Under the pieces are notes generated by a model. The model ran no database searches, had not been told where the DNA came from, and worked only from the letters and a program-made list of their open reading frames with translations. From positions 22,878,001 through 22,942,000 of the forward strand of contig NC_059439.1 in assembly GCF_021028975.2 (NCBI RefSeq): a DNA stretch of 64,000 bases. The letters run 5' to 3'. Below are positions 365-50,190 of this stretch, one piece after another; positions within the stretch are counted from its first letter, which is position 1, and every line of letters begins with the position of its first letter. This DNA is from Sphaerodactylus townsendi (Eukaryota). A program made the position numbers and the translations under genes.

Positions 365-1461
365 GGCTGTTTTTACAAGACACAATTACACTGGGGTTGA
401 ACCAGGATCATATATACCTGGACTTTTTTATCCCAGGGTCTGTCTACACATGGCTCCCCGCTTCTGCACACAAGCAGAGTTAGGACCTGTAGGAAATGCT
501 CCAATTTGCTCCGCATGAGCCAGACTTCTGTATTTACTTCAGAAGCATGTCTGAGCATGCCCAGTGTCCCACGTTCTGATTGGCTGTTATTTTTGAGTGG
601 CAGCTGCAAGAACCTTTGGCTTGCCTGGCATCCTGCATTCTGATTGGCTGTTGTTTTTGATTTGCAGCTTGAATGAATATCAGATGAGGAGATCAGGTGC
701 CTGTGTGGGAAAAATAAACTTGGTCTCTCCCAATTGGTGTTTTTGTGTATGTGCTGTGGAAATGTAAGAAATTGATCTGTGTTTCTGATGGTTTAAAATA
801 AGATTTTGCTATCAGAGGGAAAGAATAGTGAACAGATCTGCTAATTGATTTAAAATAAAGCTTGTACTGAAGAAAATATACCAAATTATTGTTCTTATTG
901 GCTGTTGCTTTTGAGTTGAAGCAGTGAACACCTGTGAGCTTGTCTGGCATCCTGCATTCTGATTGGCTGTTGTTTTGAGTGGTAGCTTGAATGCACATCA
1001 GGTGGTGAGATCAGGTGGCTGGGTGGGAAAAATAAATTGGTCCTGCTTCTGATTGGTTTTTGAATGGTAGCAGGCACAAGCTGGGTCACACTGGGATTTT
1101 TTTTAAAAAAAAAAACCCTCCAAATTGGGGTGCTCTGTGGTCTCCGGGCTGTATGGCTGTGTTATAGCAGCATTTGGAGGATCATAGATGCAAGCCACAG
1201 ATGTAGGCGAAAAGTCAGGAGAGAATGCTGCTAGAACATGGCCATAAAGCTTGGAAACCCCAGTGATTCCGGCCATGAAAGCCTTCGACAATAAACCTCC
1301 AAACTGGAGATTTTTGAAAATCCTGGACTAAGGTAAATATTGGGGGGGGGGGCAACACTGGGGCAGACTCTGTGCAGTTTTGGGAGTCATGCAAAATTCC
1401 TGGCTGCACAAGGATATTTTCTGTGCTCATCCTGAGATACTTTGACCGTGCAAAAATGGCC
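365..1461. mobile_element. Probable old non-autonomous PIF/Harbinger-type DNA transposon (~1.1 kb) with internal duplicated blocks
   Basis: TTA|GGCTGTTTTTACAAG ... CGTGCAAAAATGGCC|TTA gives imperfect TIRs and a 3-bp TTA TSD; internal blocks ~620-740 and ~940-1060 repeat (ctggcatcctgcattctgattggctgttgtttt). Confidence 0.5.
1127..1293. mobile_element. Penelope-like element pseudo-LTR remnant, folded back as an inverted pair
   Basis: gggtgctctgtggtctccgggctgtatggctgtgttatagcagcatt followed by the opposite-strand aatgctgctagaacatggccata...aaagccttcgacaata; same repeat as at 2714-2840 and 3438-3532. The hammerhead CTGA core is missing here. Confidence 0.85.
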
Positions 1462-1748: not shown

Positions 1749-2690
1749 ATGGGAGGGAATATGCAAACAGGAGAAAATGGAACAAGAGTGGTGGAATTCA
1801 TCCTTCTTGGTTTTCCTGGGTCCCCATATTTGCATATATTCATCTTCACACTCTTTCTTATCATGTATCTCCTGACAATTTTGGGAAACATGTCCATCAT
1901 CATTCTAGTAACAACACAATGTCGTCTCCACTCTCCCATGTATTTCTTCCTCTGCAATCTCTCTTTCCTGGAGATATGGTACACCACTGCAATAATTCCA
2001 AAAACTCTGGGAATCATTACAGGGAGTAGCAGAAGCATCTCTTTAGCTGGTTGCAGTCTACAGATCTACTTCACTTTTTCCTTTGGATGCACAGAGTTTT
2101 TCCTGCTCACCGTCATGGCTTATGACCGATACTTGGCTATATGTTTTCCACTGCACTACAGCACTATCATGGACATTAGCCTTTCAAGCAAGTTGGCAGT
2201 TGGCTCTTGGCTGTGTGGTTTCCTTATTATTTCTATAATAGTAATTCTCATCTCAAGGCTTTCCTTTTGTGGACCCAATGTGATTAACCATTTCGTGTGC
2301 AACATTGATTCATGGATAATTCTGTCTTGCACAGATACCTATGAAGTTGAATTGGCAATGTTTATTATTTGTGTCTTTGTCATCTTGGGCTCCTTTTTGA
2401 TAACACTTCTTTCATACATATTCATAATCGGTACCATTCTACAAATGCCTTCTGCCAGAGGACAGCAGAAGGCCTTTTCTACATGTGCCTCTCACCTTGC
2501 TGTTGTTGGCATTTGGTATGGATCCACTATCTTTCTTTATGTTAAGCCATCTAAGGGGACGTCTTTGGAAAGTGCCAAAGTAGTGAACATTCTGAATACA
2601 ATTGTGACTCCACTACTGAATCCTTTTATCTACACACTGAGGAACAAAGAGGTTAAGGAGGCTGTGAAAAGTTTGTTGCACAAGGCATGA
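1749..2690 (+). CDS. Olfactory receptor, intact, 313 aa (class II, OR6-like)
   Basis: LHSPMYFFLCNLS, MAYDRYLAIC, KAFSTCASHL and [12 protein letters not shown] motifs; N-terminal NGT sequon; pyrimidine tract and AG acceptor just upstream (tcttttcctcagcag). Confidence 0.97.
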   Translation: MGGNMQTGENGTRVVEFILLGFPGSPYLHIFIFTLFLIMYLLTILGNMSIIILVTTQCRLHSPMYFFLCNLSFLEIWYTTAIIPKTLGIITGSSRSISLAGCSLQIYFTFSFGCTEFFLLTVMAYDRYLAICFPLHYSTIMDISLSSKLAVGSWLCGFLIISIIVILISRLSFCGPNVINHFVCNIDSWIILSCTDTYEVELAMFIICVFVILGSFLITLLSYIFIIGTILQMPSARGQQKAFSTCASHLAVVGIWYGSTIFLYVKPSKGTSLESAKVVNILNTIVTPLLNPFIYTLRNKEVKEAVKSLLHKA

Positions 2691-2794
2691 AAAAGAACAT
2701 GTTGTATAATGTATTGTCGAAGGCTTTCACTGCCGGAATCACTTGGGTGCTGTGTGGCTTCCGGGCTGTATGGCAGTGTTCTAGCAGCATTCTC

Positions 2795-2837
2795 TCCTGA
2801 CGTTTCGCCTGCATCTGTGGCTGGCATCTTCAGAGGA
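2795..2837 (-). ncRNA. Minimal hammerhead ribozyme motif in the Penelope pLTR (minus-strand copy)
   Basis: Minus strand reads TCCT-CTGAAGA-T-GCCAGCCACAGATGCAGGC-GAAA-CGTC-AGGA: stem I TCCT/AGGA, CUGANGA core, stem II GCC/GGC, GAAA and a GUC cleavage triplet. Minimal hammerheads are known in Penelope pLTRs. Confidence 0.75.
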
Positions 2838-3438
2838 TCTTCTGGTTAATGAGTGTCATGGTGTCTGCTATGGGGACCTTGGTGAATAGGGAAACCACAT
2901 CAAAGCTGATCAGTTTGTCATTGGGGTTGAGTTTGAGTTTGCTGATTTTTTCAATGAAGTGAGTTGAGTCCTTAATGTAATGTGTAGTAAGTCCAATATG
3001 GATTTGTAGTTGTGTGGCCAGAAACTTTGCCAAATCATATGTAGGAGATCCAATTGCACTCACAATAGGTCTGAGTGGAGTGGAGTCCTTGTGGATTTTT
3101 GGGAGTCCATACAGTCTAGGAGGGTGAGCTTCAGATTTGCAGAGATGTTGGCAAATGATTGGATCAAGTGAGGAGTTTTTAATCAAGGTGTTGGTTTTCC
3201 TGGTGATTTTGTTGGTTGGGTCCTGTTTTAACTTTTTTGTATGTTGTGGGGTCCAAAAGTTGTCTGATTTTTTCTTTGTATTGGTCTGTTTCCATGAAAA
3301 CCATGGCATTACCTTTATCTGCTGGTAGAATGATGATTTCTGAATCAGAATTGAGATCTTTGATGGCTTTTCTTTCTTTCCTTGTTATGTTACTGGAGGG
3401 AAGTTTTGCCTTTTTCAGTACCTCTGAAGTACCTCTGA

Positions 3439-3481
3439 TCCTCTGAAGATGCCAGCCACAGATGCAGGTGAAACGTCAGGA
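3439..3481 (+). ncRNA. Minimal hammerhead ribozyme motif in the Penelope pLTR (plus strand, sense to the OR)
   Basis: TCCT(3439-42) CTGAAGA(3443-49) T GCC...GGT GAAA(3470-73) CGTC AGGA(3478-81); the stem II closing pair is a G-U wobble. Confidence 0.72.
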
Positions 3482-4105
3482 GAGAATGCTGCTAGAACAC
3501 GGCCATACAGCCCGGAAACCACACAGCACCCAAAACATGTTGTATACTTTGCAGGAGGATAAAATATGCTTTGAAATCTATGGGAAGTGTGTGACTTTAG
3601 GCTGTAGACTCATTTTGAAGAGTGCTGAAAGTACGTTGAAATAATCCTTCAAAAACATGCAAAACTATGCAGAAAAAGGTAAAGGTCAGTGTTAGATCAA
3701 GATTAATAAAACATGGAGGCACAATGACGCCTAAAGGAGAGATTCAGAAGACGACCACAGTAGGCAGTCTTTCAGACATATTAACCGCAAACCATGCAGG
3801 GCTGAAACCATAAGCTTATGGCAGAGATATACGATATGACCGACATTGAGGGAGGACTTTTATAAAGAAAAACTTTATTACAACTTCTATTAAAATCAAC
3901 ACATGAATATAAAACCTATGAGTATATGACATTATTAGCTACCATATCACACTGAAAATGGTTCATCATTCTGGAGATCTTGCAAGATGTTAAAGTAAGC
4001 ACTTTTAGTTGAATCCATCCCTAAAGTTAATAATACATCTTTCATTTAAGAAAACACAAATCAGAAGATCTGCTGAACTTCACACACAATATCTACTGGA
4101 AAGCC

Positions 4106-4124
4106 TATATATATATATATATAT
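4106..4124. repeat. (TA)n microsatellite
   Basis: Direct observation. Confidence 0.9.
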
Positions 4125-4130
4125 AAAAGA

Positions 4131-6559
4131 CTAGCAGGCCCAGCCATGCATTGCGGTGGCAATTGTCCTTCTCATCACAGTCCACAACCCACACAGATGT
4201 CCATGAAGGTCCAATGATTCCCAGCATAGCCTTTTGGGGTGATCAAATGGAATTCCTCTTTCCCTTTTCAATGCACATTGTTATATGTTGCTGTCTTTTT
4301 TTTTAGTATAATGTAACCCTTCCCATTCCACAACGGAACTGTCCAGAGTGTGAATCCCGCTGTCCATGAGGCTGGTTGACATGCACAGTCCTGGCTTGGG
4401 TAAGGCAGAACTGGGGCAAGCAGGCTATCCCAGTCAGGCAGCAGAGCAGGGTGGTGAGGTGCTCAGATCGAGGCCAGCTCCCTGGGTTCGTAAAGGGCCA
4501 TGTGCAAAAGAAGCGGAGCAGGTAGTGTAGGTTCGCCCCCACCCCACGGATTTTCTTAGAAGAAAAAGGCAAACTCCAACTCACTTTTAGTAAAAGAGAG
4601 CTGCGGCGAATATGGGTGAGGAAGTGGGTAAGTGGTGGTTGGATGTGAGGGAGGGCAGAGTGAGGTGTGTGAGAATGAGCTGGATGTGTGTTGTGTGGTA
4701 GCAGTGGGTGAGGCACAGAGAGTGAACTCTACTTACTAGAGTTCTTTGAGGGTGTAAACAGGCATGTGGATAAGGGGGAACCAGTGGACATTGTCTACTT
4801 GGATTTCCAAAAGGCTTTTGACAAAGTTCCTCACCAGAGACTATTGAGAAAACTCACCAGAGACTCACCAGAGATTATTGAGAAAACTCAGCAATCAAGG
4901 AATAAGAGGGGAAGTCCTCCTATGGATTAAAAACTGGTTGAGAAGCAAAGAGTGGGTGTAAATGGGAAATTCTCACAATGGAGAGATGTAAGGAGTGGTG
5001 TCCCACAAGGATCCGTTTTGGGACCAGTGCTCTTTAACCTATTCATAAATGACCTGGAAGTAGGGGTGGGTAGCGTGGTGGCCAAGTTTGCAGATGATAC
5101 CAAATTATGTACGGTGGTGAGAACTGCAAAGGATTGCGAAGAGCTCCAAGCGGACCTTGATAAATTAGGTGAGTGGGCTAAGAAATGGCAAATGCAGTTC
5201 AATGTAGCAAAATGTAAAGTGATGCACATAGGGGCAAAACCGTAAACTTCACATACACACACTACAGGGGTCAGTGCTATCAGTTACAGAACAGGTAAGA
5301 GATTTGGGTGTCTTAGTTGATAGTTCCATGGGAATGTCAACTCCAATGCATGTGGCAGCTGTGAAAAAAAGGCAAACCTCTATGCTGGGGATAATTAGGA
5401 AAGGAATTGAGAATAAAACTGCAAAGATTGTCATGCCCTTATATAAAGCAGTGGTGCGACCGCACTTGGAGTACTGTGTTCAGTTCTGGTCACAACATCT
5501 CAGAAAGGATATTGAAGAGATAGAAAAAGTGCAGAGAAGGGCAACGAGGATGATTGAGGGACTGGAGCACCTTCCTTATGAGGAGAGGCTGCAGCGTTTG
5601 GGACCTCTTTAGTTCTGGAAGAGGAGAGACGTCTGTGGGGGATATGATTGAAGTCTATAAAATTATGCATGGGGTAGAAGGTAATGTTGACAGAGAGAAA
5701 TTTTTCTCTCTTTCTCACAAATACCTAGAACCAGGGTGTACATACATTGAAAAATGCTGGGGGGGGAAGAATCTAGGGACTAATAAAAGTGGAAACACTT
5801 TCGCACGCGAACGCGGTGGATTGGTGTTTGAAATATGCTGCCACAGGAGGTGGTGATGGCCACTAACCTGGATAGATTTAAAAGGGGCTTGGACAGATTT
5901 ATGGAGGAGAAGTCGTGATTTCCATGGCCGTACCAATCTTGGATCCCTTTGGATCTGCTGAGATTGCAAAATGCCTTAACAGTCCAGGTGATCGGGAGCA
6001 ACAGCCACAGAAGGCCATTGCTTTCACATCCTGCACGTGAGCTCCCAAAGGCACCTGGTGGGCCACTGGGAGTAGCAGAGAGCTGGACTAGATGGACTCT
6101 GGTCTGATCCAGCTGGCTTGTTCTTATGTTCTTATGTTCCTATGAAAGTTACCTGCGTGTCTGTGGGGGGGACCCAACCTGACGTCTCACACGGCAAAGT
6201 GTGTATGTGTTTCACTTCCACTCGTATTACCTAACAGTATTACCTATTTACTGTTTCCACTGCTCATCTCTGCCCACCTGCACGAACATTCCAAGCCCTC
6301 ATACCAAGCCCTCAGGCCACAGACAGACAGGCTGCACGAACATTCTAAGGGTGACAGTTAAACAGAGGCTTCATGGCCTGGTGTGCTAAGAAAAAGATGT
6401 TTTACCTGGCTCAGGAATGGACTTTCAGCGGTTTGAAGGTCCCAGTACCTGCCAGCAACAGGGTCAGACGTCCTGTGAAAATTTGGGGGCGATCCATCGA
6501 GCAGCTTCTGAGGGAGACCATCAGGGACAAACACACTGTTAGATTTATATATAGATAGA
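4131..6559 (-). mobile_element. Non-autonomous Helitron, interrupted by a CR1 LINE
   Basis: Minus strand starts TCTATCTATATATAAAT (6559) and ends with a GC-rich hairpin (GCCACCGCAATGCATGGC) about 12 nt before the CTAG terminus (4131); it sits between host A and T with no TSD. These are canonical Helitron termini. Confidence 0.8.
4727..6144 (+). mobile_element. CR1 LINE, 5'-truncated, RT region and 3' tail, nested in the Helitron
   Basis: YLDFQKAFDKVPH, SGVPQGSVLGPVLFNLFINDL, KFADDTKL, VRPHLEYCVQFW and EKVQRRATRM motifs; ends in the (TTCTTATG)n octamer tail; frameshifted. Confidence 0.95.
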
Positions 6560-17290: not shown

Positions 17291-18378
17291 CATTTATTTA
17301 TTCATGCCATGTTATGCCATGTTATTCAATTCCTGTTTATTTAATCATGGACAATCTAAAGTAAAGTATAATCAAATCTCTCAGCAAGCATGTATTGTTC
17401 GTAATTATTATTTATTTTATTTATATTTATATTTATTTATATTTCAAATTTATAGGCCGCCTCTTCCCCAAGGGGCTCGAGGCGGCTTCCAACATGGCTG
17501 TTCTCTGACAGCAGCTCCAACAGCATAAATTAACACATTTAAAATCCAGCATAAATTAACACATTTAAAATCCAGCAACAATCATATACAATTTAAACAA
17601 TAAACCAATAAAACGGTAAAAACGGGCGCCCAATCCCAAGGCTAAAAGGGAGAATTAAATAATAGAAGAGGAAAAAGGGGGGAGCGGCGGCCCCAGATAG
17701 AATCAACAGTGTTCCTTATTACTGTTCCTTATTAAAAGCCTGTTCAGTTGGATTTTAATTTTAATTTTCCAGTCTGCCATGTTTGTTTCATTACCACTGA
17801 TAATTTGAAATTTCTGATCCTAGATATAATTCAGATTCTTCAGTATAATTTATTGCTCTCCCAGATGGGCAGCCTCACCCAAGGTGCCGGCCACCTGGCC
17901 TTGGTGACATGGCTGTCCCAACCCATCAGTACCAAAGTGGCTTCCCAGCAACATGGGGAGACTTAAAATGCTGAAAGTCTCCCTGCCACCAAAAAGACCC
18001 CATTGGGCTGAACAAACCTATGTCAACCTTTATTATTTTTTAAAAAAAGTTTTGTATTAAGTTTTTAAGCAACTACACAACATAACTAAAACAATATATG
18101 CAGTTCTATGGTGAGCCAGTCACCCTAATACTAAAAAACTATGGTACTTACACAGTAATACCAGAAAAACAACAACGATTTGACTTCCTTCCTAGGACGC
18201 ATTGCAAAATCTATTTTCTTTTTATCCTGTTATAGGAGTTAACCCACTGATTTAGTTCTTCTTTTCCTGTTTTGGTTGTTCTAACTGCCATCTATTTATA
18301 GATTTATTTGTATGATTGATACCATTGAATTCCTTTGCTTCGTGCTATGTTGCATATTTGAAAAACTTTATTATAGTT

Positions 18379-18412
18379 TGGGTGCTGTGTGGTTTCCGGG
18401 CTGTATTATATT
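18379..18412 (-). mobile_element. Micro-insertion of a Penelope pLTR end
   Basis: tgggtgctgtgtggtttccgggctgtat flanked by the 12-bp direct repeat TTTATTATAGTT (18367-78 / 18413-24). Confidence 0.8.
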
Positions 18413-25566: not shown

Positions 25567-27134
25567 TCAATCAATCAATCAATCAATCAATTTTATTGAA
25601 AGCCATAGGCCATTACAATATTACAATATTATTACATTAAAACTTCTGAGCCAACTTGTTATTCCAACAGGTAAGAAAAAGAAAAAAAAATTCACTAAAA
25701 ATCCATCATGTGAACACTAAGTCTTTCACTTTCCCCCCCTACAGTATGTCTAGATTGTATTCCCACCTAACTTATACCAATTTAGGTTTGATCATTTACT
25801 TTATTACGTTGTTGGAGCGAATCTTTGTAGCTGCCAAGGCGAATAGGCCAACCCTATAGGATATATAGGGATCCAAATCCGCAAGGAGAAGGTATAATTT
25901 GTCTGACTCATAATATACCTGGGACAGGGATATGAAACTATTCAGAAACTTAGCCCTAGGCTCTGCGTACAGGGGGCAGTTCAGAACATAATGAGGTAAA
26001 TCCTCTACTTCCTGTTTGCAGATACAAATTCGTTGTTCAACTGGTATTTTGGCATATCTGCCTTCTAAATAATTTGTTGGCATTGTTTGAAATCGTAATG
26101 CTGTCATAGCCTTCCTTATCTTAAACTGAGTAATGCCAGCAAGATAGGAGGCTCTATGATGATCCTTTTTAAGGTGACTATACCAGGGAGCAAACTTGGA
26201 ATGTAAAATTATATCTCTGTCCATACAGTTATCTCCTTTGAATATCCAATCCCGAAGGTCGTGATTTAAAATTGGTGAAGAGAATAAATGATCTGGAACA
26301 GAATAACTGAGCAATATATTATTTAGGGAGGTATTATGTAATTTTGAGGCCTTTAGTAATATCTGCAGACTTTGATTCCCAAACGAAGTCGGTTTTAGTG
26401 AACTCTTTAACGTATTTCAAAATTGCCAATTCAGCTCGAGCTTTAATAGAAGGCAAACCGAGTTCTGCCCTAAGGAGGGCTGCTGGCGTTCCTTTAGGGA
26501 GTAGGAGAATTCGTTTAAGGAAGGAGTTTTGAATAGTTTCTATTTTATGTAGGACTTGGACATTCCATCCCCAAATCTCTGTAGCATACAGTAACATAGA
26601 TATAACTTTAGTTTTAAAGATTTTTAGGGCTGGATCAACTAAATGACCTCCTTTTGTATGATAAAATCTCAATATTGCCCCAACAGATTTTTGGGCAGCT
26701 GCTTTGACCACTGCTAAGTGGGCATTCCAATTTAGTGAAGGGCTGAATGTAACACCTAAATATTTAAAATAATTGCATTGCTCTATAGGAATATTATGGA
26801 TGTTCCAACTGTATTTTCTTGGTCTTTTCTTGAACACCATTACCTTAGTTTTGGAATAGTTTATGGAGAGGGCCTCCTCTCTGCAGTACTCACCCAAACT
26901 ATATAGGAGTCTCCTTAAACCATTCCTTGTAAGTGAAACTAGGACCATATCATCTGCATAAAGCAGAATTGAAATTTTCTGTTTTCCTAGCGAGGGGGCA
27001 ACAAATTCATGGCCAGTCAGCTTAGGAATTATATCATTAATATAAAGATTGAATAAAATGGGGGCAAGTAAACAGCCCTGCTTGACTCCTTTCCCTGCTC
27101 TAAACCCATCTGTTAGAGAGCCTGAAAGTTTCAT
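25567..27134 (-). mobile_element. 5'-truncated non-LTR retrotransposon (RTE-X-like), RT C-terminus, CCHC finger and (ATTG)n tail
   Basis: GVKQGCLLAPILFNLYIND, LLYADDMVL, FKYLGV, LLYATEIWG and CICKQEVEDLPHYVLNCPLY motifs; the 3' end is aataaa-(attg)n at 25567-25597; one frameshift/stop near 26330. Confidence 0.9.
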
Positions 27135-29909: not shown

Positions 29910-30811
29910 TTAACTCCTCCTCTCTATTATCAACTTCCTGGAATTGAGATCAGGTCTTAGAATAATTATGTAACATTTGGGGAAAAAGATGCAAGTCAAT
30001 AGCCCACTGTTAGAAGCCAAGATGGCAAAAATCTCTACAGCCACAATATGCTTTCCTTTAGTGCTCAGGTAAGCTGGAAGGAAAGAGATCCAAATGCTGC
30101 AAAACACCAGCATGCTGAAGGTGATGAACTTGGCTTCATTGAAAGTGTCTGGCAATTTTCTGGCTAAGAAAGCTACAATAAAGCTGATGATGGCCAGAAA
30201 ACCCATGTAGCCCAAGACACTGAAGAACATGGTGACTGAACCATCATTACATTCAAGTATGATCTGCTCAGCCTGTGAGTGCATGTCAGCATGTAGGAAA
30301 GGAGGAGTGGTGGATGCCCACGCAATACAAATGGCCACCTGAATGAGGGAGCAGGAAAGAACAATGAAGTTAGCCACACTTTTCCCTAGGAATTTTCTCA
30401 ACCTATTGCCTGGATTTGTGGCCTCGAAAGCCAGGACCACTATAATTGTTTTTGCCAACACACAAGAAACAGATACAGAAAAAGATATGCCAAAAGTCAT
30501 TTGTCGTATGAGGCAGGTCTCCTTGATTGGTTTGCCAATGAAGAACAGGCAAGAAAGATAGCAAAGCAGAATGCAGATGAGAAGAACGCAGGTCAAGTGC
30601 CGGTTGTTCACTGTGATGATGGGTGTATTCCAGTTCTTCAGGATGATCTGCACCACCAAACATGTGATCGCAGAAAAGGAAAAAGCAACAGAAAGTAAAA
30701 CTGTTCCCAAAGGCTCTTGGTAGGATAGGAAAGTGATGACCTTTTGACTGCATTGGTCTCGGTTTTTGTTTGGATACTGATCCTCGGGGCACTTGACACA
30801 GTAAACTGCAT
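29910..30811 (-). CDS. V2R (vomeronasal type-2 receptor) exon 6, end of the Cys-rich domain and 7TM
   Basis: [36 protein letters not shown] and [15 protein letters not shown] motifs (class C GPCR); acceptor ctgctccAG; 902 bp. Confidence 0.96.
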
Positions 30812-30984
30812 CTGGAGCAGACAAAGGCAAACAAATCTTTTACTTCCTAGTGGTGCTCTTTGTTTTTGTTAAACAAATATAACAAATGGTGGCTGAACTG
30901 ATCTTCTGGACACTTGTAGCTGATAAGGGTAATTTGCATTTTTATAACTTGGCATGCATAGACATTACTATAAAGAGGAAGAGG

Positions 30985-31200
30985 AGGAGGAGTTTGGACT
31001 TAAATCCCACCTTTCTGTCCTGTAAGGAGATTCAAGACGGCTTACAAGCTCCTTTCCATTCCTCTCCCCACAACAGACACCTGGTGAGGTAGGTGGGGCT
31101 GAGAGAGTTCTGAAGAAGGACCCTCTGCCACTCAGGTGGAGGAGTGGGGAATCAAACCCAGGTTTTCCAGATTAAAACCCATCTGCTCTTAACCACTACA
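30985..31200 (-). mobile_element. Squam3-like SINE, internally deleted
   Basis: Reverse complement of the 20481 SINE; other decayed copies at ~7060-7205, 15835-15930, 19000-19140, 21010-21160 and 27975-28150. Confidence 0.8.
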
Positions 31201-31514
31201 CAATTCTGAAGTTTGTGTATGTAATTCTTTGGGACTTTTTTTTAATCCTGCAAGGATACATTGCTTTCTTCTTCACCATCTTAAATTCATGACAACCCTA
31301 TGAGATAGAATAAGCCTACAGAGAGTATTTTATGTAGGATCACCCAGTAAACTCTGTGGCATACTGGGGGTTTGACCCTGGGTCTCCCTGCTTGTATGAG
31401 CAGATTTCAGCCACTATACTTCACTGACTCAAAAAAAGAGAGATTATTATAAAATACCCCAATGACTGCATGTGAAAGTATACTCCCCTTCAGAATCCAT
31501 GTACCATCACTTAC

Positions 31515-31641
31515 CAGTGCTATTAGAAATCATGTTTTCAGGGCATGGTGCACAATCATAGCAACAAGGTGATTTCCCTTCCTGAATTATCTGGCTGTGC
31601 CCAAACTGGCAGCTCTCAACACATTTGGATTGTGGCGGCAT
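31515..31641 (-). CDS. V2R exon 5 (cysteine-rich NCD3G domain), 127 bp, missing from the ORF track
   Basis: ctgcatAG|MPPQSKCVESCQFGHSQIIQEGKSPCCYDCAPCPENMISNST-G|GTAAG; phase 0 in and phase 1 out, joining exon 6 as Asp. Confidence 0.95.
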
Positions 31642-31683
31642 CTATGCAGAAACAATTGGAACCATTATTGTGCCAGTGTTTTA

Positions 31684-31824
31684 GGTTCATTCCGCACATG
31701 CAGAATAATGCACTTTCAAACTGCTTTCAGTGCTCTTTGAAGCTGTGCGGAGTGGCAAAATCCACTTGCAAACAGTTGTGAAAGTGGTTTGAAATCGCAT
31801 TATTTTGCATGTGAGGAAGGGTCC
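31684..31824. mobile_element. Harbinger-type MITE (AT-rich family) in V2R intron 4
   Basis: TTA|GGTTCATTCCGCAC ... GGAAGGGTCC|TTA. Confidence 0.9.
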
Positions 31825-32223
31825 TTAGTCTTGGTTGCCGTGTACGTCCTGCTTCATTCACTCTCAAACAGAGGCTGCCCATGAAATCTTTGCGTTTACG
31901 TCATTTCAGAGTTTGCAAAGGATATTGGCCTGACCTTTTATTTTTATTAAGACTTGACAGACATGAGGTACAAAGCCTCTGCTGATATTCTGGCTGCACC
32001 TGCCTCATTCCAAAGTTGAAACTTTTTTTATTGTTCAGAACTTAGCATAAATGTTACCTGTGCCCAGATGAAAGAAAATGTTTGAATCATATTTATTTAG
32101 ACCAGGTCTTTCAGTTGATAATATAGTGCCATTCCAGGACTGGGAAAAGAGATGGGATGAGTGGCCTTCAAAGTGCCTTTACAGTTCTAAATTTCCATGT
32201 CTCACACAGCCAGAATTAACTCA

Positions 32224-32648
32224 GGCCGTTTCTGCATGGCCCCCTCGCGCCCCCACGCCGGCAAGCGTGCGAGCAGGCAACAGGGAGGCCGGCAGAAGGC
32301 AGGCGGCTCCGCACGGAGCCGCCTCTGCGCCCTCCCCCGCCCCACTTACGGTGTCCTCCTCGTCGCCTGCGGGGCGTCGCAGCCCCGCCCACGCTGCCCT
32401 CCGACCCTGGAGGTAGGAGGACAGTGTGGGCGGGCTGCACTTCCCGCAGGCGTGAGGAGGACACCGTATTAGAGGGAGGAAAGCGTCTTCGGCGTGGCGG
32501 TTAGCACGCCAAGAGGGAAGGCGATCCTCCCAACAACAACCCTTTAGCGAGGGAAGAGGTGTCCGCCGCTGCTCGCGTTGCAGCAGCGGGCGCTATTTAG
32601 GCGGCCTTTTCCCCCAGGCCGTCGTTAATTGGCCGTGCGGAAACGGCC
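32224..32648. mobile_element. GC-rich Harbinger-type MITE in V2R intron 4
   Basis: TCA|GGCCGTTTCTGCATGGCC ... GGCCGTGCGGAAACGGCC|TCA; CpG-rich interior. Confidence 0.92.
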
Positions 32649-33171
32649 TCAGTTTTTTTAGCTATATTTCCCCTACTTAATTATCTTCCAACACTATACT
32701 GGTCCTTGCTTCATTTACTATCTTGGAGCCACAGTTTTGGGCAGTAGAGGAACTGTAAAAAGAAATTCTTTTGGTATCTGCATATTTAGCAGACACAAAG
32801 GAGAGGGGAATAATTAAGGAGATAAATCTTCTATACTACTTTCTCTATAATACTGCTTATTGGAAACGTCATATATTTAGATTGAAGAACAGTCTGTGTG
32901 TGTGTGGGGAGGGGGGGCAATTTAAATCCATTAATGAAATTTATTAAAACAGGATTTTTTAAATCATTCCTTTACTGTAACAGTCTTTCATGGTATGACT
33001 GAACACTTATAAAACTACAGCCACAAAACTTTCCCTTGTGCATTCAAGAAAAAAAAATGGTAGACACATCATCTCTCTCTAAAAGTGTGCAATGGACTTA
33101 ATCCAGTCAGTTCTTCTGCAGATGAAAAAGAATGATGCGTATCCATTTGGTTCACCTAAAAGACTCTCTAG

Positions 33172-33312
33172 GGCTTATTCCGCACATGCAGAATAATGTA
33201 CTTTCAAACTGCTTTCAGTGCTCTTTGAAGCTGTGCGGAATAGCAAAATCCACTTTCCAACAGTTGTGAAAGTGGTTTGAAAACGCATTATTTTGTGTGT
33301 GCGGAAGGGGCC
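33172..33312. mobile_element. Harbinger-type MITE (AT-rich family)
   Basis: TAG|GGCTTATTCCGCAC ... GTGCGGAAGGGGCC|TAG. Confidence 0.92.
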
Positions 33313-33565
33313 TAGGAGTCATTGGAGCAGCATGCAGAAAAACCATGTGGAGCAGGGGAAAACTGGGCTAGATTAAATAAAAGAGCTAGCTGCATCTAAC
33401 CCAATATGTTTATTAACACCATATTCATTGGTTTCAAATATGTTGTGTTTGCCAGAAGGAAAAAATAACAATTGCTTTGCAAAACAAGCCATAGTATATA
33501 ACCTACCTAGGGGAAAGTCTGGCATGTGATCTATAGCTATTCACCCACCTGGGCTTTTTTCTTAC

Positions 33566-33778
33566 CTGTTGCAATCTGTTACTCCACACAATGGTGTCCT
33601 CCCTGATGAAGAACTCATGACTTGGTAAAATTTTTCCAACCTTGACTTCAAGGAATGATTGATTAGGAAAAGTGACCCAGTTGATGATATCATACCCAAT
33701 AGATAATTCTCCACTTTCGAACAGGATTTCATGCAAAGCTCCATTGTTAAAATAGATATTTTCCAGGGAAGAGTGAAG
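33566..33778 (-). CDS. V2R exon 4, 213 bp
   Basis: aatctAG|LHSSLENIYFNNGALHEILF...GYDIINWVTFPNQSF...LQQ|GTAAG; phase 0/0. Confidence 0.95.
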
Positions 33779-33920
33779 CTAGATTAGGAGAGAAGACCTG
33801 TGAATATTGATGATGGAATCCATACATACAATGTTCCATTCATTTTGTCATTAGATGAGAAATTCAAAGAAATAAAATACACTAGTTTTTTCCCCTCATC
33901 CAACGTGAATGAGAGTCTGT

Positions 33921-34071
33921 GGCCCCTTCCGCACATGCGGAATAATCCACTTTCACTCCACTTCCACAACTGTTTGCAAGTGGGTTTTGCTCTTCCGCAC
34001 AGTAAAACCCGGCTGCAAAGTGCATTGAAAGTGGATTGGAAGTGCATTATTCTGCATGTGCGGAAGGGGCC
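33921..34071. mobile_element. Harbinger-type MITE (AT-rich family)
   Basis: TGT|GGCCCCTTCCGCACATGC ... GCATGTGCGGAAGGGGCC|TGT. Confidence 0.93.
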
Positions 34072-34563
34072 TGTATGATCGGAGTGCTGGTGTGATGTAG
34101 CGGTCAGAGCATTGGACTTGGATCTGAGAGACCAGGTGTGATTCCCCATTCAGAACCAGTCACTGGCTCTTTCTGCACAACACAAATAAAACATTCTGAG
34201 GAAGATAATTAAAATGTTTCCTGTAGGACTTCTGCACAGCTTTTTCCTTAACATTTTTGGTGTTTTATTTTTCCTCAAAGGGTTTTGTTTTGAAAACAGT
34301 AAACTAGCATCTTTTTTCCCTGAAACTGTTTTTAAAACATGTTCTGCTCACTGCACAGAAATCAGGCAATGTTTTAATTTTTCTGCTCTATTTTGAAGTT
34401 CGCACTTTTGTTTCTCTTGCACCTCCCATTTTTTGCTCAACACTTCTGCACCACTGTTCATTATTCAATTCAGCTTTTCACTTAAAGAAAGTTTCCTAAT
34501 GGTCATTTTAATTTTCCAGCTTCAACACAAATCCATGCTTATAAAAATCCATATTGACTATAC

Positions 34564-35379
34564 CTGCCATGGCTGAACATTCAAATCCTGGAACTTGCCT
34601 CTATGTGACATGATTCCTTGTTTGGATAAGTACATGAAATGTAAAGCATGAGCCACAGCATAGACAGCATTGTAGATTGCATAGCTCTGACCATTCATAT
34701 CCATCTCAAACCTCCTTATAGAAAGACTCTCCAACTTTTCATTTCCTGTACATTTTTCAAATTGTCCATGACTTTCACTGGACAGATGACAGTTGAAGGC
34801 ATCTTGCCAGAACAAACAGAGAAACTGCTTCATTGATTCATCTAGTTTGAAGTTCTGAAGAAAGTCCAAAAATCCTGGCACACTTTTAGTGCTGGTACTG
34901 AAGGACAAAGCACCCTGAAAATATTGTGCACCAATAAGTACCCCAGGCCTTGAGGTGCTGAAATACCATTGAGGTGGCAAAATCCAAACCTTTCCTATAT
35001 AGATCTTGGTGATGGATTCAAAAACAACTAGCTGGATTGTTAAGACACAGATTAAGTGAGAGGTTTCCTGGAGAATGATCACATTGACTTTAGTTAAAAG
35101 GAATGCAAGTCGGTGTTTCTCAAGAAGGTCGATCTTTAATATGTGCTTATGCAGAAAAGCAACACAAATGTTATTCTGGGCAAGGACAGGTGTGAAGTTC
35201 TGGAAAAAGCTTTCTCCTTCATCATCGTCTGAAATAATGAGACCAACCCATCTCCACTGGAAATGCAGAAGCAGCTGGACAATGCCCATGTGATGAGTGG
35301 ATTCTTTTGGTGAGATGCAGTGCAAAGACAGAGATCCAGTTTTCCCACAGAATGAACTCTTATGTGTACCATAAGTAAA
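34564..35379 (-). CDS. V2R exon 3, 816 bp (Venus flytrap domain)
   Basis: cctgttAG|FTYGTHK...GIVQLLLHFQWRWVG...SYAIYNAVYAVAHALH...VQPWQ|GTATAG; open frame, phase 0/0. Confidence 0.95.
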
Positions 35380-36339
35380 CTAACAGGAAAACCAAAACTG
35401 GTTAGAGTTGGGAAAGTATCAAGAATGTTCTAACTGATTTATTTTGAAATCTTTTTTTCTGTCCATCCTCCAAGATGCCTATACTGAGTCAAGCTTGTAT
35501 GTAAAATGCATAAGGACCAAGGTCAGCAACAACCACTGGTTGAATTGCTACTACATGACTAACCCAGCCCTGCCTGCTCACTTTTGTTCAATAGCAGCCA
35601 CCACAAGAAAGCCATGGTGGCTTGGGGTTTCACACTTATGATTCGGGAGTCCAAGGTTTGAATCACCACAGAAGTCCACTGGGTGATCCTGGGTCTTTTA
35701 CACTTCCTAAATTACCTCACCAGGTTGTTGTGAGCATACAATGAAGGAGCAGAAAGCTATGTAGTCTGCTTTGGACATGTTTTTTTGTGGAGAAAGGAGG
35801 GGTATAAATGATGTAAATAAATAATAAATTTAGCTGAAGACTGTGGGTGGAATAAAAGAAGCTTGATTGGTGAGTGGGAAAGAGATAAGAGAGCAGAAAA
35901 GGAAGGAAGATATGGAAGCTTTCAGAGGTGGGAAAGTGAAAATAATAACAGGGAGGAAATGAGATATGGCCACAAGTCCTTGAAGGTCTCCTTGTTATAA
36001 GTAATCTCAGATTGTATGGCAGCTAATATAGGCCGGTGTCAAGGTACACACAACCTTGCTCTTCCTTTTCTATTGCAGAGTTTTTAATTTCCTAAGTTTG
36101 AAGATAAACAGCATATTTTTACCAAGTCACTAAGAGGCATCCTAGAGTAACATCTCTAGATTTTCTCAATAATTTCAACCTCTACATATTTAGACACAGG
36201 GAGAAATAGTCAGCAACAAATTAAAAAAATGCTTGCTTCTCTAGCCCAAATTATCTTTACGCTGCTGTAATAGTTTTTATTCATCTACCTTTTTTGAGAA
36301 ATGTAACATTAATTACAACTACTGGAAGAAGAAGAAGAA

Positions 36340-36357
36340 GAAAAGGAAGTAGAAGTG

Positions 36358-36394
<37 letters not shown>

Positions 36395-36665
36395 CAGTAG
36401 TTTTGGATTTATACCCCACCTTTCTCTCTTTTAAGGAGACTCAAGGTGGTTTACATGCTCCTTTCCCTTCCTCTCCCCACAGCAGAGACCTTGTGAAGTA
36501 GATAAGAGTTCCAAAGGACTGTGGGTAGCCCACGGTCCCTCAGCAGGAGTGTAGGAGAGTGGGAACACATCTGGTTTATCAGAGAAGCCTCTGCCACTCA
36601 GGAGTGGGGAATCAAACTCATTTCTCCAGATTAGAATTCACCTGCTCTTAACCAGCACAACACAC
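36340..36665 (-). mobile_element. Squam3-like SINE with an expanded (GTA)n/(GAA)n tail
   Basis: ttggatttataccccacc...ctgctcttaacca is the reverse complement of the SINE; microsatellite tail at ~36325-36400. Confidence 0.8.
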
Positions 36666-36773
36666 TGGTAGAATATTAATGAATGAATGTTTTAACTAAG
36701 AAGCTCTATTAAAAACCCCACAATAGTTCAGAAAATAAGTATTCCATCCATAACCAAATATACATGTACTTAC

Positions 36774-37065
36774 CTGAGGAATCTTGTAGGTGTTGAAAAT
36801 GCTGGCTATCTCAATCATGCTTCCAGTGGGGAACTCCCCAATAACAGAAAGTGCACCATTTTCCCTATCACACTTATAGTTAGGTGCATGCCTTTGCTGT
36901 GTAAAAAGTAGATCCAGGATGACTTCATGTGTAGTTTTTGAATGAAAGAAATTGTCATAGATGTGAAATCCAAGGCTGACATTGGGCAAGAGTTTGGGAT
37001 TCTTGTTGATCTCGTTGATGGCAAAAAGCAGGGACAGGACAGCCTGATATTTTCTCATTTTTATA
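36774..37065 (-). CDS. V2R exon 2, 292 bp
   Basis: tctctgcAG|T IKMRKYQAVLSLLFAINEINKNPKLLPNVSLGFHIYD...APNYKC...YKIPQ|GTAAG; phase 2 in and phase 0 out. Confidence 0.96.
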
Positions 37066-38101: not shown

Positions 38102-38418
38102 GCGATAGTTGCACATGTGCATTCTTAGAGAATAATCTTGAACAGGTTTACTCAGAATACTGCTCAATGATCCTTACTCCCAGGAAAGTATGCTTAGGGT
38201 AGCACAGAAAATCATGTCCTCTGCTATAAGAGCCTAACAGGAAAGAGCTTACATCAATTCAGTCTTACTCCTCTATGCAGCAACAACCCAGATTTAATAT
38301 GTGTATTTGAGATTAGTCATAGAAGTAGATTCAGAAGCTAAGCATCAGCAGTGTAATTTAGATTGTTCTTTGACTATAATTTTACAGGAAATAAAATTAG
38401 TAATCATGATTTTGATTG

Positions 38419-38500
38419 CCAGCCACAGATGCAGGCGAAATGTCAAGAGAGAATGCTGCTAGAACACGGCCATACATCCCAGAAACCACACAGCACCCCA
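38419..38500 (+). mobile_element. Short Penelope pLTR insertion upstream of the V2R
   Basis: ccagccacagatgcaggcgaaatgtc...aaaccacacagcaccc with a 13-bp TSD ATGATTTTGATTG (38406-18 / 38501-13). Confidence 0.9.
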
Positions 38501-38776
38501 ATGATTTTGATTGTTAGATAACAACAATTTTGATAATTACAGAGTAGAAAATTCCTAGATATCACCAATTTTCTGTGAAACTGAAAAAAATATTTTCCAA
38601 GTTTCAAAAAAAGTTATTGCAGGTGTTTCAGAGAGCTAGTTGGTTCTTTCTGCAGTGCTTGTACTAAATATGCAACGATGAAATGCAAGGATTGCCTTGG
38701 TATGTGACTTGGGTGGGCACCTCCAAAACTGTAAGGCAAAAACATGCACAAAAATCACTCTGTAAGTTATTACTAA

Positions 38777-48589: not shown

Positions 48590-50190
48590 TGTTCCTGCTT
48601 CAAACACTCCACTATCGTCCCAGTGCCGAAGAAGCCTTCCATCAAGGAACTGAACGACTACAGACCAGTTGCTCTAACATCTGTAGTTATGAAAACTTTT
48701 GAAAGGCTAGTGATGTACCATTTGAAAACCATCACGGATCCACTGTTGGACCCCTTGCAATTTGCATACCGAGCAAATAGATCGACAGATGATGCTGTTA
48801 ATATGGCTTTGCACTATATCCTACAGCATCTTGAATCGCCAAAGACCTATGCAAGGGTCCTCTTTGTTGACTTTAGTTCAGCATTCAATAGTATCAGACC
48901 GGACATTCTTCTAACCAAACTAAATCAGCTAGCAGTACCTGAGCATATTTGTAAGTGGATCACAAGCTTCCTAACAGATAGGAAACAGCAGGTGAAGCTA
49001 GGAAAAATTACATCAGACACCTGTAAAATGAGCATTAAAATTTCAAGGCTGTGTGTACTTTCAATTACTTCTCTTCTGTATACCAATGACTTACCAAATG
49101 ATCCATCTGTTAAAAAATACTGAAATTTGCAGATGATACAACAGTGATTGGTTTCATCTCGGAGACAACTATGAAACCGCGATACAGACGGGAGGTTGAA
49201 CAACTAGCCTCGGGTGCCACTGGAACAATCTAGAACTGAACACTTAAAACTATAGAAATGGTGGTAGATTTCAGGAGAAACCCTCCCATCCTACCTCCTC
49301 TCACAATACTAGACAAATCAGTATCAACAGTGAAGACCTTAAATTTCCTAGGCTCCATCATATCTCATGGACCTAAAATGGACACCTAATATCAAAATGT
49401 CATTAAAAAGCACAACAAAAGAATGTTCTTTCTCATGTACCAACTCAGGAAGCTCAAACTGCCCAAGGAGAGCTGCTGATACAGTTCTACAGAGGAATCA
49501 TTGAGTCTAAGTTATCTGCACCTCTATAATTGTACTGGTTTGGTTCTGCAAACCCAACAAGATCCTTACATGACTCCCCAGAGAGAATAATCAGAACTGC
49601 AGAAAAACAATTGCTATTAACCTGCCTTCCATTGAGGACCTGTATACTGCAGTAATCGGTCAAAAAAAAAAAGGGCTGTGAAAAATATTTACTGACCCCT
49701 CAAGCATCCTGGACATAAACTGTTTCCAACTCTTACCCTCTAAACGTCAAGCTACAGAGGCACTGCACACCAAGACAACAACTAGACATAAGAGAACAGT
49801 TTTTTCCTCACGCCATCACTCTGTTAAACAAATAAATTCCCTTTGATAATGCCAAACTATTTATTATATATTTATTATATAATTACTGTGCACTACTTTT
49901 TTTTTCTATCATTCCTATTACCTCATCTCCTCCCACTATGAGCTGTATTGACTATAGCCTGTGCTGACATTTCCCATTTTATTTTATGATTTTACATTTT
50001 ATGTTTTATTACTATTGATTGTTTTCCTGATTGCTTACTAGGACCTATATGACAATCATTATGCTGTACCTTATGATTCTTGACAAATGTATTTTTTCTT
50101 TTTTATGTACACTGAGAGCATATGCACCGGAGACAAATTCCTTGTGTGTCCAATCACACTTGGCCAATAAAGATTCTATTCTATTCTATT
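48590..50190 (+). mobile_element. Rex1/Babar-like non-LTR retrotransposon, 5'-truncated
   Basis: [48 protein letters not shown] and KFADDT motifs; 3' end ggccaataaag(attct)n; many indels after ~49000. Confidence 0.88.

What the first reader, a model, noticed from the sequence alone, without database searches (positions are those of the whole stretch)
2696..3710. Penelope element with inverted hammerhead-bearing repeats inserted just behind an OR stop codon
Seen: the TSD starts 6 nt after the OR TGA. The insert has ~95-nt inverted arms, each with a full minimal hammerhead motif (sense copy 3439-3481). I see no AATAAA between the stop and 3705-3710. Known: Penelope pLTRs carry minimal hammerheads that often need to dimerise to cleave. 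Inference: the OR mRNA 3'UTR would contain both a potential self-cleaving motif and its antisense copy, so folding could switch between a long dsRNA stem (ribozyme masked, ADAR/Staufen substrate) and a cleavable fold. That would be a TE-derived post-transcriptional control on an odorant receptor.
Basis: partly seen in the sequence, partly recalled or inferred. Interest (0 to 1): 0.7.

Follow-up and report, generated by a model that had tools for sequence, protein, structure and literature searches.

The report
Young Penelope insertion behind odorant receptor
A recent, broken copy of a very common lizard jumping gene landed just behind an odorant-receptor gene, likely inside the untranslated tail of its message, where its two mirror-image ends are predicted to zip into a long hairpin that would keep its small self-cutting RNA motif shut, so it is likely an ordinary insertion and not a gene switch.

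Summary
The anatomy is real: a 13-nt target duplication starts 6 nt after the OR stop and flanks an 825-nt Penelope/Poseidon-type insert with 97-nt inverted arms (94/97 matched), each with a minimal hammerhead motif. Four close paralogs show the empty site, and two of them carry the AATAAA now at 3705, so the insert likely lies in the 3'UTR. The switch idea fails. The hammerhead fold lies about 76 kcal/mol above the arm-arm hairpin, and the masking arm is transcribed first. The sense copy carries a G10.1-C11.1 to G-U change. The antisense arm cannot be a dimer partner. In published tests such motifs did not cut as monomers, and the Anolis relative cut only with its own protein. Inverted arms are the family norm (26 of 40 position-ordered copies), the 35-nt core has 12,878 exact genomic matches, and a hit behind some OR gene is near chance. 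Likely origin: both cut DNA strands primed reverse transcription, with one template jump. Expression was not tested. This scan noted the same pattern before, in this genome and in other genomes' 3'UTRs. Verdict: ordinary member of a known kind.

The parts
1749..2690 (+). Intact odorant receptor ORF, 313 aa
   Evidence: PF13853 E 3e-50; about 94% DNA identity to paralogs L062, L063, L064, L068
2696..2708 (+). Target site duplication, left copy (13 nt)
   Evidence: a single diverged copy in 4 of 4 paralogs
2709..2742 (-). 34-nt one-sided tail of the pLTR (element positions 98-131)
   Evidence: family 3' ends cluster at 92-105 and 126-138; a 30-40-bp tail is described in PMC8557442 and PMC11167929
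2743..2839 (-). Left arm: first 97 nt of the element from GATC; holds the family-majority hammerhead motif on the minus strand (core 2799-2833), antisense in the OR message
2840..3418 (-). Internal 579-nt piece of the element ORF (N-terminal part of the RT region, frameshifted), not contiguous with either arm in longer copies
   Evidence: 97% to positions 748-1329 of natural copy L052; 88% aa identity to the L054 ORF; 29 other copies continue differently on both sides
3419..3436 (.). 18-nt junction filler that repeats the adjacent arm end; likely slippage at the joint
   Evidence: absent from the 29 other copies fetched; origin inferred
3437..3533 (+). Right arm: first 97 nt of the element, sense in the OR message
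3439..3481 (+). Minimal type I hammerhead motif: stem I 3439-3442/3478-3481, CUGAAGA 3443-3449, extra U 3450, stem II 3451-3453/3467-3469 (G-U at 10.1-11.1), GAAA 3470-3473, palindromic ACGU 3473-3476, predicted cut after C3477
   Evidence: architecture as in PMC4209133; no Rfam hit
3534..3546 (+). Target site duplication, right copy
3705..3710 (+). First AATAAA after the stop; candidate ancestral poly(A) signal (+179 from the stop before insertion)
   Evidence: homologous AATAAA at +181 and +183 in L062 and L063, AATCAA in L064 and L068; no clear U/GU-rich element follows; use not shown

Best explanation
This is a young, internally deleted copy of an abundant Penelope/Poseidon-type retroelement that inserted 19 nt behind the stop of one odorant-receptor paralog, likely within its 3'UTR, where the arms are predicted to form one stable ~94-bp hairpin that would keep the hammerhead from folding, so it is likely an unselected passenger and not a switch. 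Shown: TSD, arms, tail, ORF piece, family abundance, empty paralogs. Inferred origin: the element's endonuclease cut both target strands 13 nt apart; each cut primed reverse transcription at one of the two internal start points (about +131 and +97); each cDNA ran to the RNA's likely 5' end at GATC, 29 nt behind a TATA-like box; the longer cDNA jumped onto an internal stretch of element RNA for 579 nt before the two were joined. Inferred consequence: if the OR message reads through to 3705 it gains about 840 nt and a long duplex that could be edited or lower expression passively; the ribozyme would stay silent.
For: Anatomy. Abundance: 12,878 exact matches of the 35-nt core, reversed-pattern control 0. 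Default layout: 26 of 40 position-ordered copies have a head-to-head partner; 37 of 40 end at 92-105 or 126-138; 17 of 26 pairs join one short and one long arm, as here; 24 of 40 begin within 5 nt of GATC; TSDs found in 13 of 26, 8-15 nt. In the similarity-ranked set 21 of 30, this copy included. Among the first 100 listed cores, 8 head-to-head pairs and 0 tail-to-tail, about 1,000 such pairs if extrapolated. Youth: 97-98% identity to sister copies against about 94% between OR paralogs, 4 of 4 of which are empty. Folding: 94 of 97 arm pairs at P>0.9, hammerhead-compatible ensemble 76 kcal/mol higher; modelled dimer -7.9 against -25.2 for free cofolding and -103 for the arm duplex over the motif. 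Literature: monomeric minimal motifs did not cleave and dimers weakly (PMC4209133); the Anolis Poseidon motif cleaved only with protein and no RNA-seq reads ended at its site (PMC11167929); inverted copies with a one-sided tail are typical (PMC8557442, PMC3846280). Chance: about 0.5 exact cores expected within 500 nt behind 150 OR genes (region size assumed), and 3 of 29 other ORs have a pLTR piece within 1.5 kb downstream.
Against: No RNA from olfactory tissue was available, so neither the UTR extent nor the absence of an effect is shown. None of the 29 other ORs checked has a young two-armed copy between stop and first poly(A) hexamer, so this placement is uncommon for ORs. The OR frame is intact. 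Folding energies are models and ignore proteins and helicases. A short-tract acceptor-like site at 3418 could in principle remove the masking arm, though no good donor was found (best 4 of 9 consensus letters). The twin-priming steps are inferred from end positions only, and 13 of 26 pairs gave no TSD with my search.
Confidence: 0.86

Rival explanations
1. Ribozyme switch: the OR 3'UTR alternates between a dsRNA stem and a cleavable hammerhead, and cleavage removes the poly(A) tail as in mammalian Clec2 messages.
For: The sense motif lies between stop and first AATAAA and keeps all core bases. A 3'UTR hammerhead that lowers expression is known for Clec2 (PMC6765202 section 12). A chosen OR message is very abundant in its neuron (recalled), which could favour dimers.
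Against: 76 kcal/mol gap, masking arm transcribed first; duplex survives full A-to-G reading while editing would hit core A's (inference); G10.1-C11.1 pair decayed (pair called highly conserved in PMC4209133); relative needs its protein (PMC11167929); even the isolated 61-nt piece adopts stems I+II with P about 0.03.
Confidence: 0.03
2. Co-opted dsRNA element: the ribozyme is irrelevant, but the hairpin has been kept because editing or dsRNA-binding proteins tune this receptor's message.
For: Predicted 94-bp stem in a probable 3'UTR; mouse OR messages have long, alternatively polyadenylated UTRs (PMC6624953, abstract only).
Against: Young and paralog-specific; contig lengths suggest the site is empty in two related organisms (indirect); about 1,000 similar hairpins genome-wide (extrapolated); retrozymes are depleted from exons in Xenopus (10.64898/2026.07.22.740005 results).
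Confidence: 0.05
3. The hairpin never reaches the mature message: transcripts end early at the weak AATGAA at 2953 inside the insert, or this paralog is not expressed, so only the antisense arm or nothing is carried.
For: AATGAA at 2953 precedes the right arm; the 3705 signal is kept in only 3 of 5 paralogs and lacks a clear downstream U-rich element.
Against: AATGAA is a weak variant (recalled); 3705 is the first canonical hexamer and is homologous to that of two intact paralogs. This rival changes the consequence, not the origin.
Confidence: 0.06

Closest known systems
PAc, Poseidon element of Anolis carolinensis (Frangieh et al. 2024, PMC11167929; main text read up to the start of Methods)
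   Same: Hammerhead with the ORF start codon at stem II; two internal ends 30-40 nt apart (here 97 and 131); AT-rich target; RT followed by a GIY-YIG-like domain in longer copies (L054).
   Different: No direct sequence comparison with PAc was run. This copy is dead: it has no endonuclease part and no promoter half of the pLTR, and its ORF piece is frameshifted.
Inverted 5'-truncated pLTR with one-sided tail of EN+ Penelope-like elements (PMC8557442 Fig. 2 legend; PMC3846280; passages read)
   Same: Head-to-head arms, tail on one end only, TSD around the whole unit.
   Different: Here the spacer is an internal ORF piece joined out of order rather than the usual 3' end of the element; 1 of 30 copies mapped has this layout.
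Minimal PLE hammerheads (Cervera and De la Pena 2014, PMC4209133; results and discussion read)
   Same: Short stem I, extra base between 9 and 10.1, palindromic 15.2-16.2 in place of stem III; pairs on opposite strands 100-700 bp apart were already reported there.
   Different: The sense copy has G-U at the conserved 10.1-11.1 pair and a short stem II.
Clec2 3'UTR hammerhead of mammals (as reviewed in PMC6765202, section 12 read)
   Same: Cut site between stop and poly(A) signal.
   Different: Clec2 has a split ribozyme shown to cleave and lower expression; here the motif is minimal, masked by a near-perfect antisense arm, young and untested.

Membership tests
EN+ Penelope-like element (Penelope/Poseidon type) | PLE-type RT ORF | tested here: met
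   Window piece alone has no Pfam hit but is 88% identical to the L054 ORF, which hits RVT_1 weakly, E 6e-5, below cut-off; the PLE-typical motifs in it are recognised from recall
EN+ Penelope-like element (Penelope/Poseidon type) | C-terminal GIY-YIG endonuclease in the family | tested here: inconclusive
   L054 3' ORF shows GVY...YIG with C/C/H/H residues by eye (motif recalled) but no Pfam hit; absent from the window copy
EN+ Penelope-like element (Penelope/Poseidon type) | pLTR that overlaps the ORF start and carries a hammerhead | tested here: met
   Direct pLTRs 2,724 nt apart in L052; ORF runs through the motif in L054
EN+ Penelope-like element (Penelope/Poseidon type) | Inverted truncated copy, one-sided 30-40-bp tail, TSD | tested here: met
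   97-nt and 131-nt arms, 13-nt TSD; 17 of 26 sister pairs alike
EN+ Penelope-like element (Penelope/Poseidon type) | RT phylogeny places it in Poseidon rather than Neptune or Nematis | not tested
   No tree built; the clade label rests on likeness to the published description of PAc
Minimal type I hammerhead (PLE type) | CUGANGA, GAAA, NUH cores with stems I and II | tested here: met
   Rfam models do not detect it
Minimal type I hammerhead (PLE type) | G10.1-C11.1 pair | tested here: not met
   G-U in the sense copy; C in 92 of 97 sister copies and in the minus-strand copy
Minimal type I hammerhead (PLE type) | Self-cleavage | not testable with these tools
   Needs an assay; folding models argue against it in this context
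Regulatory 3'UTR ribozyme or RNA switch (Clec2-like) | Lies inside the mature 3'UTR | tested here: inconclusive
   Paralog alignment supports it; no RNA evidence
Regulatory 3'UTR ribozyme or RNA switch (Clec2-like) | Two folds of comparable stability | tested here: not met
   76 kcal/mol gap
Regulatory 3'UTR ribozyme or RNA switch (Clec2-like) | Conserved at the orthologous site | tested here: inconclusive
   Empty in 4 of 4 paralogs; indirect sign of an empty site in two related organisms
Non-LTR retrozyme | Tandem head-to-tail, non-coding hammerhead repeats | tested here: not met
   Arms are inverted and enclose an ORF piece

The most novel reading that the evidence does not exclude
A single young Penelope insertion has given one odorant receptor a 94-bp hairpin 3'UTR that measurably tunes its message in olfactory neurons (editing, retention or decay, or cleavage once splicing or the element's protein frees the ribozyme), and it has been kept by selection: a transposon-made control on receptor output, with empty sister genes as built-in controls.
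Probability: 0.06. Interest if true: 0.55.

Novelty: new member of a known kind. Interest (0 to 1): 0.12.

Why it matters
As it stands it matters little: one of roughly a thousand similar hairpin insertions, here beside an OR gene. Two modest uses remain. The gene and its 94%-identical empty paralogs form a natural pair for testing what a long 3'UTR duplex does to an OR message. The junctions add one more case to the inferred two-ended priming of Penelope elements, here with a jump into the ORF; earlier notes of this scan proposed that priming model, and one paper search found no Penelope paper using the phrase 'twin priming' for it in the held library.

Tried and rejected
Rfam scan of 2400-4200: no hammerhead. 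Pfam on the window's 159-aa piece: nothing. Sequencing runs: no RNA holder listed; this is no evidence on expression. One RNA run of a related organism (X12, about 6% read, tissue unknown) had no depth in the 26 bins up to 2609 and reads only on the repeat tail, so it says nothing about this gene; editing could not be tested. Contigs on the left flank broke at paralog branch points and did not show the site. On the right flank, loose ends at 3536-3537 were OR-like, empty-site letters in X4 and X8 and none were element letters, but these come from paralog-like contigs; the ortholog-like contigs ran over the stretch's end, so their letters were not shown. Idea that the ORF-to-pLTR joint is a splice: rejected, sister copies have no GT donor there. 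Idea that splicing removes the masking arm: no donor above 4 of 9 consensus letters, which is at or below the usual background, and no acceptor passed my 0.72 pyrimidine cut; a short-tract site at 3418 remains. Retrozyme reading rejected (not tandem). Luense et al. 2017 on dimers is not held; I saw it only as cited in PMC6765202. Papers linking Penelope hammerheads to OR control: none seen in the listings (listings and abstract starts only). No supplements were read; those of PMC11167929 (Fig. S2, File S1) bear on end positions and on identity to PAc. A look-up of earlier findings by sequence gave nothing.

Full report
Observation. The window is an OR and V2R-like cluster of a 1.81-Gb genome; the repeat content points to a lizard (inference; earlier scan notes say gecko). 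The OR at 1749-2690 is intact. A 13-nt duplication at 2696-2708 and 3534-3546 flanks an 825-nt insert; its arms at 2743-2839 and 3437-3533 match at 94 of 97 positions; each holds a minimal hammerhead pattern; the first AATAAA after the stop is at 3705. Rfam does not see the motif.

Anatomy. Read on the minus strand, the insert is: an inverted 97-nt arm, an 18-nt filler, 579 nt from inside the element ORF (positions 748-1329 of natural copy L052, 97% identical), then 131 nt from the element's front end, that is the same 97 nt plus a 34-nt tail. In the 29 other copies fetched with the ORF piece, the sequence continues differently on both sides, so this copy joined non-adjacent parts. Longer copies have pLTR-ORF-pLTR, a weak RVT_1 hit and a GVY...YIG region by eye. 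The layout fits the description of the Anolis Poseidon element (PMC11167929); I did not compare sequences with it or build a tree.

How common. The 35-nt core has 6,430 + 6,448 exact matches in G000, control 0. I took the first 40 listed places on contig C1 in order of position (pairs merged). Of these 26 have a head-to-head partner, 20 end at 92-105 and 17 at 126-138, 24 begin within 5 nt of GATC, and 17 of the 26 pairs combine a short and a long arm; a TSD of 8-15 nt was found for 13 of 26; both arms had an exact core in 3 of 26. Among the 100 listed cores there are 8 head-to-head pairs and 0 tail-to-tail, about 1,000 pairs if extrapolated. The 30 best-matching copies gave 21 of 30, this one included. 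In 4 longer loci (L006, L008, L052, L054; a fifth checked, L018, gave no line) a TATA-like box precedes GATC, by 29 nt in most, so GATC is likely the RNA's start. Published work describes inverted truncated copies with a one-sided tail as typical (PMC8557442; PMC3846280) and maps two internal RT start sites to the ends of the tail, with both target strands cut and extended (PMC11167929). The simplest reading is two-ended priming with run-off at the RNA start and, in this copy, one template jump. That step is inferred.

Is it in the 3'UTR, and how old? Four paralogs at about 94% CDS identity (L062, L063, L064, L068) all show the empty site with one copy of the target. L062 and L063 have full 313-aa frames and AATAAA at +181 and +183 from the stop, homologous to 3705 (+179 without the insert); L064 and L068 have AATCAA there. 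So the insert likely sits in the ancestral UTR, though the signal is kept in only 3 of 5 and lacks a clear downstream element. Sister copies are 97-98% identical, so the insertion postdates the OR duplications. In run contigs, the ortholog-like right flank (about 96% alike) extends 31 and 38 letters left of 3534 in X4 and X8, but 22 letters in the near-identical X1. A contig built from 31-letter words should reach at most about 30 letters into a very high-copy repeat, so this hints at an empty site in organisms B and D and fits a filled site in A. The letters were not shown; the hint is indirect.

Can it switch? Folding 2688-3730 gives 94 of 97 arm pairs at P above 0.9; forcing hammerhead stems I and II with a free core costs 76 kcal/mol in ensemble energy. 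The arm duplex is -202 kcal/mol against local folds of -29 and -18. The antisense arm is transcribed first, so there is no early window for the ribozyme (sequence order). Reading every A as G leaves -171; a modelled two-molecule dimer scores -7.9 against -25.2 for free cofolding. The sense copy has T at 3469 where 92 of 97 copies have C, which breaks the G10.1-C11.1 pair that PMC4209133 calls highly conserved. In that paper a single minimal motif did not cleave and dimers cleaved weakly; in PMC11167929 the Anolis motif cleaved only with the element's protein, and no RNA-seq reads ended at the site. The 2790-2840 arm is a ribozyme only on the opposite strand. These are models and results on relatives, not assays of this RNA.

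Is the placement special? With one exact core per 140 kb, 150 OR genes (the number scored, a lower bound) would have about 0.2 cores within 180 nt and 0.5 within 500 nt behind the stop; 20,000 genes with 1-kb UTRs about 140 (sizes assumed). Of 29 other ORs, 3 have a pLTR piece within 1.5 kb downstream, one before its first hexamer, and none has a young two-armed copy there (L064 had only 454 nt). So it is uncommon per gene but unsurprising per genome.

Expression. No RNA holder was listed, and the one RNA run laid was of another organism and uninformative. A passive effect of the hairpin on this OR is therefore open, in either direction.

Earlier scan notes. After forming my reading I found the same fold-back stubs reported repeatedly in this genome and in 3'UTRs of other genomes, with like verdicts. 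They are unchecked AI notes and add no independent support; the run-off and twin-priming reading that I reached-43 matches theirs.

Verdict. A real but ordinary young Penelope/Poseidon-type insertion, probably in an OR 3'UTR, predicted to form a locked hairpin. The ribozyme switch is not supported. New member of a known kind; interest 0.12.

Noticed in passing
window 1125-1293: An older (82-90%) fold-back copy of the same family lies about 450 nt upstream of the OR start codon, with a decayed ~15-nt TSD; paralog L063 has the empty site. This paralog thus took two independent insertions, and the upstream copy is complementary to the left arm across the coding exon.
   Followed up: partly
window 18378-18406 and 38417-38506: Two more fragments of the same pLTR family.
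   Followed up: no
L093-L132, L001-L030: Most short copies begin at GATC, about 29 nt behind a TATA-like box and at an initiator-like TCAGATC (consensus recalled); several head-to-head pairs share the GATC palindrome at the joint (gap -4).
   Followed up: partly
L070 (+379 to +614 from stop) and L073 (+184 to +259): Other OR genes with pLTR pieces downstream: an inverted pair behind the first poly(A) hexamer in L070, a single antisense arm before it in L073.
   Followed up: no
L092 and L068 (G000 contig C1464, 12 kb): A small unplaced contig holds three close paralogs of this OR: one full frame, one 110-aa remnant and one cut by the contig end.
   Followed up: partly
window 3575-3950: In run X1 the near-identical contig (1 difference in 376) has about half the depth of a paralog contig (15.9 against 29.8); could be one haplotype only, unexplained.
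   Followed up: no
window 4720-5900, 25796-27134, 48689-49123: Other retroelement remains: a CR1-like stretch by eye and two RT-like ORFs (family labels recalled).
   Followed up: no
window 29910-37058: V2R-like exons (class C GPCR motifs, recalled) sit inside the OR cluster.
   Followed up: no
window 555-1085: An imperfect ~64-nt repeat array with CTGATTGG motifs upstream of the OR.
   Followed up: no
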